From assembly GCA_024275415.1 (NCBI GenBank), contig JAJRZD010000065.1, positions 1 through 5,625 of the forward strand: 5,625 nucleotides of DNA, written 5' to 3'. Position 1 is the first letter of the stretch. Every line of letters starts with the position of its first letter. Shown in pieces: positions 944 through 4,827 of this stretch. The DNA comes from an archaeon. GTDB taxonomy: Archaea; Asgardarchaeota; Thorarchaeia; Thorarchaeales; Thorarchaeaceae. A model generated the notes under the pieces. It was not told the origin of the DNA. It made no database searches and saw only the letters and a list, made by a program, of their open reading frames with translations. Made by a program: the position numbers and the translations under genes.

Positions 944-1049
944 TGGTGCCGAGGGAGTGAGTTCCACGAAGGGGGAAATCCCCAGTCGATTTGAACACTC
1001 GACGACACGGTCTTCAGCCGTGCGATCTCCCGGGCTAATCTACCTCGGC
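944..1049 (-). tRNA. tRNA-Phe(GAA) with a 29-nt intron in the T-loop (59/60); CCA encoded
   Basis: Minus strand: acceptor GCCGAGG/CCTCGGC, discriminator A, CCA. D-arm GATT-AGCCCGGGA-GATC. Anticodon arm CACGG-CTGAAGA-CCGTG (GAA at 1015-1013, G37). Variable loop TCGTC. T-stem GAGTG/CACTC. Removing 989-961 restores the T-loop TTCAAAT and a 77-nt tRNA. Confidence 0.96.
961..989 (-). other. tRNA intron, position 59/60, bulge-helix-bulge (BHB) motif
   Basis: GAGTG-TTCA-AAT-CGA...TCG-TGGA-ACT-CACTC: exon helix, 4-bp central helix TTCA/TGGA (one G-U), two 3-nt bulges, intron helix CGA/TCG, internal hairpin GGGG-ATTT-CCCC. Cutting after nt 2 of each bulge gives exactly TTCAAAT. Confidence 0.93.
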
Positions 1050-1074
1050 TTGATTTCAATACGATTGCCCTTGT

Positions 1075-1082
1075 AATATAAA
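1075..1082 (-). promoter_or_regulatory. TATA box of tRNA-Phe
   Basis: Minus strand TTTATATT ending about 26 nt upstream of tRNA position 1 (1049), the standard archaeal spacing. Confidence 0.7.
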
Positions 1083-1095
1083 GGTAACGAGCCCA

Positions 1096-1620
1096 TCAGC
1101 GGATTTTGTGTGCCATGTAGCTTGCAACAATAGCGGTCAGTATGGCAGCAACATTCACACCGAGAGGATACACAAGTAACGAATCAAGGAATGACAGTGT
1201 GGCCAACCATGATGGCAGATTCGCAAAGTCCGAGATACCAAATGGCACGAAGTAGAACATCAGGAAAATGCTTGTTGTAAGAGCAACACCTACAAACGCT
1301 GGCATGTCCTCTTTCGACCTAGCGAACTCTGAGAGCTTGGTAATCAAATTCGACTTAGCCTTCTGACGCCTTCTGATCTTTCGCTTCGACATGATGTGTG
1401 CCCAGCGATACATGGCCTCTGCCATGAGCACATATGCACCCGCAAGGACAGCCATCGCTCCCAGTGCGACAATCAATTGCAGTTCCGCACTCAATACTTG
1501 CACGTACTCGGATGCATGCCACATCAGTGGGATCTGAACGAATCCTGCAATCCCAAGGAATATGAGGATAAGTCCTGGCTTACTTCCGCGTTTCCACCAA
1601 ATTGCTAAGCTCATGGTCAT
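1096..1620 (-). CDS. Hypothetical membrane protein (about 4 TM spans, polybasic central loop)
   Basis: 174-aa ORF with two hydrophobic hairpins separated by KRKIRRRQKAK. SD-like AGGTAG directly before ATG. It fills the space between the hydrolase gene and the tRNA promoter. No family recognised. Confidence 0.8.
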   Translation of the reverse strand: MTMSLAIWWKRGSKPGLILIFLGIAGFVQIPLMWHASEYVQVLSAELQLIVALGAMAVLAGAYVLMAEAMYRWAHIMSKRKIRRRQKAKSNLITKLSEFARSKEDMPAFVGVALTTSIFLMFYFVPFGISDFANLPSWLATLSFLDSLLVYPLGVNVAAILTAIVASYMAHKIR

Positions 1621-3375: not shown

Positions 3376-3482
3376 TTCTATCACTCTTCAGTCCTTACAG
3401 ATACTGTACGTAGCTGTCGTGGGACTGTCTGCCTCTCTAACCGTGATGTCCGTACACCTAAACATATTTCACTCCGCAATTC

Positions 3483-3488
3483 TTTTAA
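3483..3488 (+). promoter_or_regulatory. Candidate TATA box of tRNA-Ala
   Basis: TTTTAA about 40 nt upstream of mature position 1 (3529), implying a leader of roughly 15 nt. Confidence 0.5.
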
Positions 3489-3549
3489 CCATTCCATCGT
3501 GCAAGACCAATCACACATGTCACACATTGGGCCGGTAGATCAGCCCGGT

Positions 3550-3580
3550 TGTCTTGTCCATTCGTGGGCTCGATAGGGAC
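3550..3580 (+). other. tRNA intron in the D-loop (~20/21), 31 nt, relaxed bulge-helix-loop motif; boundaries uncertain by 1-2 nt
   Basis: The D-stem halves are separated by 40 nt instead of 9. Proposed motif: H CCCG/AGGG (3 of 4 pairs), 5' bulge GTT, intron helix GTC/GAT, 3' bulge ACA facing AG. The product D-loop AGCCCGGTA matches the intron-free AGCCCGGGA of the tRNA-Phe in length and at 8 of 9 bases. Confidence 0.8.
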
Positions 3581-3597
3581 AGATCGCCTCCTTGGCA

Positions 3598-3625
3598 CTT
3601 GTAACGCATAGGCGTACTTCCAAAA
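3598..3625 (+). other. tRNA intron at canonical 37/38, 28 nt
   Basis: CCTCC-TTGG-CAC...CCAA-AAT-GGAGG: perfect central helix TTGG/CCAA and two 3-nt bulges. The intron helix begins with TT/TT mismatches, then GT/AC and ACGC/GCGT. Spliced loop TTGGCAT. Confidence 0.93.
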
Positions 3626-3757
3626 TGGAGGAGGTCCCGAGTTCAAATCTCGGCCGGTCCACCAATTTCTCTATAGGAATTGCATATGATGTCTAAGTTG
3701 TGTCAAAAGACGAGTAGTTGGGAATTATGAGGATTCCAATTCGAGTGACCCGATTAG

Positions 3758-4791: not shown

Positions 4792-4827
4792 GGTGGAAAA
4801 TAATTCCATTTTGAGTACATTAATCTG

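What the first reader, a model, noticed from the sequence alone, without database searches (positions are those of the whole stretch)
3529..3664. tRNA-Ala(GGC) carrying two introns, one in the D-loop
Seen: a 136-nt gene whose D-stem halves are 40 nt apart and whose anticodon loop has a second insert. Removing 31 and 28 nt gives a 77-nt cloverleaf with G3:U70 and a GGC anticodon that agree on Ala. Known: multi-intron tRNAs and D-loop introns are rare and described chiefly in Thermoproteales. Inference: if this genome belongs to another lineage, this extends the phenomenon. Standard annotation could miss or truncate the gene.
Basis: partly seen in the sequence, partly recalled or inferred. Interest (0 to 1): 0.85.

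Follow-up and report, generated by a model that had tools for sequence, protein, structure and literature searches.

The report
Two-intron alanine tRNA gene, Thorarchaeota
This is a real alanine tRNA gene of an Asgard (Thorarchaeota) archaeon, interrupted by two short protein-spliced introns, one of them in the D-loop. That layout hides it from common gene finders, but it is already documented for this group of archaea.

Summary
Window 3529-3664 (+) is a 136-nt tRNA-Ala(GGC) gene. It has a 31-nt intron in the D-loop (3550-3580, position 20/21) and a 28-nt intron at the canonical 37/38 site (3598-3625). Removing both gives a 77-nt cloverleaf with G3:U70, A73 and an encoded CCA.

The main evidence comes from relatives. 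Some carry intron-less copies that differ from the predicted spliced product only by one compensatory T-stem pair. Others carry one, two or three introns in the same gene. The D-loop intron's helix covaries strongly. Intron 2 has a strict bulge-helix-bulge motif and intron 1 a slightly relaxed one.

The genome encodes an alpha+beta splicing endonuclease with the broad-specificity loop, and RtcB ligase. It has no other tRNA-Ala(GGC).

The genome is a Thorarchaeota (Asgard) MAG, not Thermoproteales. Multi-intron and D-arm tRNA introns are already published for Asgard archaea (2018, 2024, and a 2026 preprint), and 20/21 is a catalogued archaeal intron position. This scan has also confirmed similar Thorarchaeota tRNA genes on other DNA.

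Verdict: a genuine and well-supported new member of a known kind, of low novelty.

The parts
3471..3490 (+). Conserved upstream element (ACTCCGCAATTCTTTTAACC), a likely BRE/TATA promoter. It ends 38 nt before the mature 5' end.
   Evidence: Nearly the same 20-mer precedes most orthologues (about 25 of 31 parsed) across several genera. In this genome the core 12-mer is found upstream of a tRNA only here. The promoter role is inferred.
3529..3549 (+). Exon 1: acceptor 5' strand, U8 A9, D-stem 5' strand and the D-loop up to U20.
   Evidence: The sequence matches the same part of intron-less orthologues.
3550..3580 (+). Intron 1, 31 nt, in the D-loop at position 20/21, with a relaxed BHB motif. 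The central helix is C3544-G3547 with A3575-G3578 (3 pairs plus a G.A mismatch). The bulges are GU|U and AC|A. The inner helix is GUC/GAU followed by GUCCA/UGGGC.
   Evidence: In 16 relatives all 7 tested pairs of the inner helix show compensatory changes, with 94% of cells paired against 50% or less when the partner is slid. Five relatives have a perfect CCCG/CGGG central helix.
3581..3597 (+). Exon 2: A21, D-stem 3' strand, G26, anticodon stem 5' strand and the loop through A37. The anticodon GGC is at 3594-3596.
3598..3625 (+). Intron 2, 28 nt, at the canonical position 37/38. The central helix and both bulges are strict: UUGG 3592-3595 pairs with CCAA 3620-3623, and the bulges are CA|C and AA|U. 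The inner helix begins after a U-U mismatched stretch.
   Evidence: The central helix is 4/4 paired in all 23 rows listed for relatives carrying this intron.
3626..3664 (+). Exon 3: U38, anticodon stem 3' strand, 5-nt variable loop, T-arm (stem 3637-3641 with 3649-3653), acceptor 3' strand, A73 and the encoded CCA.
   Evidence: Exon substitutions among relatives fall as compensatory pairs in stems.

Best explanation
Window 3529-3664 is the functional gene for tRNA-Ala(GGC) in a Thorarchaeota genome, and the only copy found there. It is transcribed as a precursor of about 136 nt plus a leader.

The archaeal splicing endonuclease, an (alpha-beta)2 EndA carrying the broad-specificity L1/CSL loop, cuts inside the two 3-nt bulges at each intron. 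The motif is strict at 37/38. At D-loop position 20/21 it is slightly relaxed, with one G.A mismatch in the 4-bp central helix and the D-stem as an offset outer helix. RtcB then joins the three exons into a 77-nt tRNA with an ordinary 9-nt D-loop (AGCCCGGUA).

Shown here: the gene anatomy, the conservation and covariation, and the presence of the enzyme genes. Inferred: the actual cleavage and ligation, and the promoter.
For: 1. The spliced product is a perfect cloverleaf that ARAGORN calls tRNA-Ala(GGC), with G3:U70 and A73.
2. Intron-less orthologues in sister genera (L028, L029, L031) differ from the predicted product by a single compensatory T-stem pair. They contain exactly the junction sequence ...CCCGGT|AGATC..., and L028 scores 65 bits against Rfam tRNA.
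3. Relatives carry 0, 1, 2 or 3 introns in the same gene with near-identical exons, and the exon changes are compensatory.
4. In the inner helix of intron 1, all 7 tested pairs have changes on both sides. 93.8% of cells are paired, against 31-50% in the slid controls and 0 of 500 shuffles reaching the covariation score.
5. Five relatives have a strict 3-4-3 BHB at the same junctions. The window has 3 of 4 central pairs.
6. The central helix of intron 2 is 4/4 paired in every relative that has the intron.
7. Among the tRNA-Ala genes found in the genome, only TGC and CGC are intact, so GGC exists only here. GCC and GCT codons are used in the window's ORFs, 34 of 85 Ala codons.
8. The genome encodes an EndA alpha subunit that aligns without gaps to Aeropyrum pernix 3P1Z_B (E=1e-43). 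A Lys aligns to K44 of the specific loop, and the Tyr/His/Lys positions are kept. It also encodes a second, beta-like subunit and RtcB.
9. A conserved promoter-like element lies upstream.
Against: The central helix of intron 1 has a G.A mismatch. The minimum-free-energy fold prefers a 3-bp central helix with the bulge shifted by one nucleotide. The outer helix (the D-stem) is separated from the central helix by two unpaired nucleotides, so the motif is relaxed.

The genome is a MAG (92.9% complete, 4.46% contamination), so a second Ala(GGC) copy on an unassembled piece cannot be excluded.
Confidence: 0.92

Rival explanations
1. Same gene and mechanism, but the 5' cut of intron 1 falls one nucleotide upstream (3548/3549, GG|U). 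The mature tRNA would then have an 8-nt D-loop lacking U20.
For: The minimum-free-energy fold pairs U3550 with A3575. That leaves a 3-nt bulge G3547-G3548-U3549 and a 3-bp CCC/GGG central helix. Cutting after the second bulge nucleotide would then give GG|U.
Against: Intron-less orthologues keep U20-A21 (...CCCGGTAGATC...). Relatives with a perfect CCCG/CGGG helix fix the bulge as GU|N. The two EndA active sites are spaced for a 4-bp helix (established knowledge, summarised in PMC4090602 and PMC5829648), which favours the G.A-containing 4-position register.
Confidence: 0.06
2. The locus is a decaying pseudogene, or the 31-nt insert is never removed and the RNA is not a working tRNA.
For: Intron 1 has an imperfect BHB. 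Standard tools do not recognise the gene. One same-genus genome (L027) carries a truncated 5' remnant of this gene type next to an intact variant.
Against: No other Ala(GGC) gene was found in the genome. The exons are identical to those of relatives, and substitutions across the family are compensatory. The intron helix covaries. The promoter element is conserved. A 40-nt D-loop would be incompatible with the D-loop/T-loop tertiary contacts of every known tRNA (established knowledge).
Confidence: 0.02

Closest known systems
Intron-rich tRNA genes of Asgard archaea: Atabeyarchaeia/Freyarchaeia (Valentin-Alvarado et al. 2024, PMC11291895), the 90-genome census (Goswami et al. 2026 preprint, 10.64898/2026.10.13.758758) and the Asgard survey including Thorarchaeota SMTZ1-83 (Kaneta et al. 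2018, PMC5829648)
   Same: The same superphylum, with multiple short (20-30 nt) BHB-type introns per tRNA gene. D-arm introns are frequent and are often missed by annotators. The (alpha-beta)2 EndA carries the L1/CSL loop.
   Different: The published focus is on Jordiarchaeia and Atabeyarchaeia. The text of the preprint does not name Thorarchaeia, and I could not check whether this particular gene is in its tables because the supplements are not held. Here the 20/21 intron of tRNA-Ala(GGC) was found in 28 of 85 genomes of one family and in none of 314 genomes from 32 other Asgard families under one exon-anchored pattern.
Multiple and non-canonical BHB introns of Thermoproteales/Crenarchaeota (Marck & Grosjean 2003; Sugahara et al. 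2007, 2008; reviewed by Yoshihisa 2014, PMC4090602)
   Same: The same mechanism and motif. 20/21 is among the listed intron positions. Two or three introns per gene occur, and a broad-specificity heterotetrameric EndA is needed for relaxed motifs.
   Different: A different phylum. No sign was looked for or found here of the inter-gene intron transposition proposed for Thermoproteales.
Ectopic and multiple tRNA introns in the nuclear genome of Cyanidioschyzon merolae and in nucleomorphs (Soma et al. 2013, PMC3728597)
   Same: D-arm and multiple introns bounded by BHB-like motifs.
   Different: Those are eukaryotic genomes with a eukaryotic Sen complex. The present gene has an encoded CCA, sits in an archaeal genome and goes with archaeal EndA subunits.

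Membership tests
tRNA-Ala | Cloverleaf with the G3:U70 wobble pair, A73 discriminator and an NGC anticodon | tested here: met
   After removal of both inserts, ARAGORN calls tRNA-Ala(GGC). G3531:T3658 and A3661 are present.
Archaeal BHB (protein-spliced) tRNA intron | Removing the insert restores a canonical tRNA, and intron-less homologues exist | tested here: met
   Intron-less orthologues L028, L029 and L031 differ from the spliced product by one compensatory pair.
Archaeal BHB (protein-spliced) tRNA intron | [quoted passage not shown] | tested here: met
   Intron 2: UUGG/CCAA with bulges CA|C and AA|U, so the central helix and bulges are strict. Intron 1: CCCG/AGGG (3 pairs plus G.A) with bulges GU|U and AC|A, which is relaxed. 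The same site is strict in 5 relatives.
Archaeal BHB (protein-spliced) tRNA intron | Structure maintained by selection (covariation in the intron helix) | tested here: met
   All 7 tested pairs have compensatory changes, with 93.8% of cells paired and slid controls at 50% or less.
Archaeal BHB (protein-spliced) tRNA intron | The host encodes a splicing endonuclease able to cut relaxed or non-canonical motifs, plus an RNA ligase | tested here: met
   Two EndA genes are present. The alpha subunit aligns without gaps to A. pernix 3P1Z_B, including the loop lysine. The beta-like subunit lacks the catalytic His by eye. RtcB scores 581 bits.
Archaeal BHB (protein-spliced) tRNA intron | Excision observed in RNA or in vitro | not testable with these tools

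The most novel reading that the evidence does not exclude
The 20/21 intron of tRNA-Ala(GGC) is an old intron specific to the Thorarchaeota family. It has been lost repeatedly and has drifted from a strict to a relaxed BHB. In a subset of relatives the GGG strand lies 2 nt further upstream, which would move the 3' cut and give a D-loop two nucleotides longer (20a/20b). If so, the family is a natural series for measuring how much motif decay the Asgard EndA tolerates. The 20-nt upstream element, specific to this locus and conserved across genera, could be more than a plain promoter.
Probability: 0.4. Interest if true: 0.3.

Novelty: new member of a known kind. Interest (0 to 1): 0.2.

Why it matters
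The main use is for annotation. The only tRNA-Ala(GGC) of this genome is invisible to default ARAGORN and falls below threshold in Rfam. Automated pipelines would therefore report a missing isoacceptor in this and many other Thorarchaeota MAGs. This gives a concrete, well-supported example of the hidden D-arm introns described in the 2026 Asgard census. The set of orthologues with 0 to 3 introns could also serve for in vitro tests of Asgard EndA specificity. It does not change what is known about tRNA introns.

Tried and rejected
- Default ARAGORN on the window found no gene. With introns allowed it gave a wrong tRNA-Gly(TCC) call.
- Rfam cmscan gave only a misaligned 24.5-bit hit, below threshold. 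It also failed to report the relative with only the D-loop intron (L024) at E<=0.01.
- The supplementary tables of Kaneta 2018 and of the 2026 preprint are not held. I could not check whether this exact gene or position is already listed for Thorarchaeota.
- I considered the conserved upstream 12-mer as a general tRNA promoter signal of this genome and rejected that. It occurs upstream of a tRNA only at this locus.
- A brute-force delete-and-rescan with ARAGORN, meant to locate extra introns in other tRNA genes, accepts many neighbouring deletions. It shows that an insert exists but does not give exact boundaries. The boundaries for Arg, Tyr and Met were read by eye.
- Pseudogene and retained-insert readings were considered and rejected (see rivals).
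- The earlier notes' label 'Thorarchaeota' was not taken on trust. It was checked against named contigs of the same-genus genome.

Full report
**What is there.** Window 3529-3664 (+) reads as a tRNA gene in three pieces.
- Exon 1 is 3529-3549: acceptor 5' strand, U8 A9, D-stem GAUC, and the D-loop up to U20.
- Exon 2 is 3581-3597: A21, D-stem GAUC, G26, anticodon stem, and the loop through A37, with the anticodon GGC at 3594-3596.
- Exon 3 is 3626-3664: U38, anticodon stem, a 5-nt variable loop, the T-arm, the acceptor 3' strand, A73 and the encoded CCA.
- The inserts are 31 nt (3550-3580) and 28 nt (3598-3625).

Joined, the exons give a 77-nt sequence that ARAGORN calls tRNA-Ala(GGC) with a flawless cloverleaf and the G3:U70 alanine identity pair.

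**Detection by standard tools.** Default ARAGORN finds no tRNA in the window. With introns allowed it forces a wrong tRNA-Gly(TCC) with one 54-nt intron. Rfam's tRNA model gives only a misaligned 24.5-bit match at 3595-3661, below the 29-bit cut-off. tRNAscan-SE was not available.

**Which organism.** The window is the whole of contig C44 of a 3.5-Mb archaeal MAG with 47% G+C (127 contigs, 92.9% complete, 4.46% contamination).

Earlier notes of this scan call the genome Thorarchaeota, and I checked that. A scan of the named genome collection for the D-loop-interrupted 5' part of the gene gave 24 loci. All are labelled Candidatus Thorarchaeota, Promethearchaeota or 'uncultured archaeon'. One of them, JBHLQH010000091.1, is a 5001-nt contig with the match at 4806. 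That is the contig of the same-genus genome G047 (C91, match at 4806), and it is labelled Candidatus Thorarchaeota archaeon LCG1B.475. Thorarchaeota AB_25, public since 2017, also carries the gene. So the lineage is Asgard, not Thermoproteales.

**Comparative evidence.** A search of 60 genomes of the same family, together with the named loci, gave 33 distinct tRNA-Ala(GGC) gene sequences.
- Intron-less genes: L028, L029, L031.
- Only the D-loop intron: L024, L032, L040, L051.
- Only the 37/38 intron: L014, L017, L020, L027.
- Both introns: the window and about 15 others.
- D-loop plus T-arm: L034, L045.
- Three introns (D-loop, 37/38, T-arm): L016, L021, L022, L055.

The window's predicted spliced product, compared through A73 (74 nt), has the same exon sequence as L024 and L005. 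It differs from the intron-less L028 only at positions 50 and 66 of the sequence, a compensatory T-stem pair. L028 scores 65 bits against Rfam tRNA. Across all orthologues the exon substitutions fall as compensatory pairs in stems, as expected for a working tRNA.

**Splice motifs.** Intron 2 has a textbook central part. The central helix is U3592-G3595 with C3620-A3623, the bulges are C-A|C and A-A|U, and the anticodon stem is the outer helix. Its inner helix starts after a U-U mismatched stretch. The 4-bp central helix is intact in all 23 rows listed for relatives with this intron.

Intron 1 is slightly relaxed.
- The central helix is C3544-C3545-C3546-G3547 against A3575-G3576-G3577-G3578, giving three pairs and a G.A mismatch.
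- The bulges are G-U|U and A-C|A.
- The inner helix is GUC/GAU followed by GUCCA/UGGGC.
- The D-stem acts as the outer helix, offset by the unpaired A14 G15.

Five relatives have a perfect CCCG/CGGG central helix with the same bulges and a 6-10-bp inner helix, which fixes the register.

On an alignment of 16 relatives (A2), the seven inner-helix pairs next to the 5' bulge all show changes on both sides. 93.8% of cells are paired, against 31-50% when the partner is slid by 1-3 columns, and 0 of 500 shuffles reach the covariation score.

The minimum-free-energy fold of the window's own sequence prefers U3550-A3575 with a bulge shifted by one nucleotide. That would remove U20. The intron-less orthologues and the strict relatives argue against it, so I keep it as a minor rival.

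**Is the gene needed, and can it be processed?** The tRNA-Ala genes otherwise found in the genome are TGC (C45) and CGC (C77) only. GCC and GCT make up 34 of 85 alanine codons in the window's ORFs.

The genome has two EndA genes.
- **Alpha subunit (190 aa):** it aligns without gaps to the Aeropyrum pernix catalytic subunit 3P1Z_B (E=1e-43). The Tyr/His/Lys positions are kept, and a lysine (K45) aligns to K44 of the Crenarchaea-specific loop. Kaneta et al. 2018 name that loop (L1/CSL) and its lysine as the basis of broad substrate specificity, and report the L1 loop throughout Asgard.
- **Second subunit (213 aa):** it is beta-like. By eye it lacks the catalytic histidine.

RtcB is also present.

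A 20-nt element (3471-3490, containing TTTTAA) is nearly invariant upstream of most orthologues across genera. It is found at this tRNA locus only in the genome. I read it as the promoter, which is an inference.

**Context in the genome.** This gene is not exceptional here. Reading the oddly called tRNA genes by eye gives the following:
- tRNA-Arg(GCG) on C20 has a strict BHB intron at about 19/20.
- tRNA-Tyr(GTA) on C117 has one at about 22/23, plus a 37/38 intron.
- tRNA-Met(CAT) on C43 has a D-loop intron plus a 37/38 intron.
- A class II tRNA on C72 has a T-loop intron.

The window itself holds a second interrupted gene, tRNA-Phe(GAA) on the minus strand at about 944-1049, with a T-arm intron of about 29 nt.

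**Distribution.** An exon-anchored pattern for a D-loop-interrupted tRNA-Ala(GGC) matched 28 of 85 genomes of this family and none of 314 genomes from 32 other families of the phylum. Both D-stem sequence variants of the gene carry the intron. The pattern is strict about exon sequence, so absence elsewhere is only 'not found with this pattern'.

**Comparison with what is known.**
- Non-canonical positions, including 20/21, and multi-intron tRNA genes are long known in Crenarchaeota (Yoshihisa 2014, PMC4090602).
- For Asgard archaea, Kaneta et al. 2018 surveyed four genomes including a Thorarchaeote, and noted incomplete tRNA sets that hint at hidden disrupted genes.
- Valentin-Alvarado et al. 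2024 found 92-95% of tRNA genes interrupted in three complete Asgard genomes.
- An October 2026 preprint on 90 Asgard genomes shows that tRNAscan-SE misses 25-30% of intervening sequences. Half of the missed ones lie in the D-arm.
- This scan has itself confirmed several Thorarchaeota multi-intron tRNA genes on other DNA.

The finding is therefore a clean new member of a known kind.

**Limits.** The supplementary tables of the two key papers are not held. The genome is a MAG.

Noticed in passing
window 944-1049 (-): A second hidden tRNA gene, tRNA-Phe(GAA) on the minus strand, with an insert of about 29 nt in the T-arm. Default ARAGORN and Rfam both miss it. It is recovered only after deleting 27-31 nt. 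Another note on this window mentions it too.
   Followed up: partly
G000 C20:55065-55175 (-), C117:27095-27231 (-), C43:83648-83788 (-), C72:3116-3269 (+): Other tRNA genes of the same genome carry extra introns of about 30 nt. Arg(GCG) has one at about 19/20 with a perfect GCAU/AUGC central helix. Tyr(GTA) has one at about 22/23 (UGGC/GCCA) plus a 37/38 intron. Met(CAT) has a D-loop intron plus a 37/38 intron. A class II tRNA has a T-loop intron. Boundaries were read by eye.
   Followed up: partly
window 3471-3490, and the same element upstream of orthologues in L005-L055: A 20-nt element (ACTCCACAATTCTTTTAACC, one mismatch in the window) is almost invariant upstream of tRNA-Ala(GGC) across genera, while the leader and the introns diverge. 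It does not mark other tRNA genes in this genome. That is more conserved than a plain TATA box needs to be.
   Followed up: partly
L008, L009, L012, L015, L019, L022, L025, L035, L040 (D-loop intron region): In nine relatives the GGG strand of the central helix lies 2 nt further upstream of the 3' exon. The BHB rule would then place the 3' cut 2 nt earlier, giving an intron of about 28-29 nt and an 11-nt D-loop with 20a/20b. In L019 the exon change C17>U is matched by G>A in the intron strand.
   Followed up: partly
L027 (G007 C624, same genus), 1046-1234 (-): A truncated 5' remnant of the GATC-type Ala(GGC) gene (exon 1, D-loop intron and a degenerate exon 2) sits 24 nt upstream of a complete variant gene that has only the 37/38 intron. 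It looks like a gene replacement or a decayed duplicate.
   Followed up: no
G000 C117:27095-29603: The gene for the beta-like EndA subunit lies about 1.4 kb from a cluster of three tRNA genes, at least one of which has several introns.
   Followed up: no
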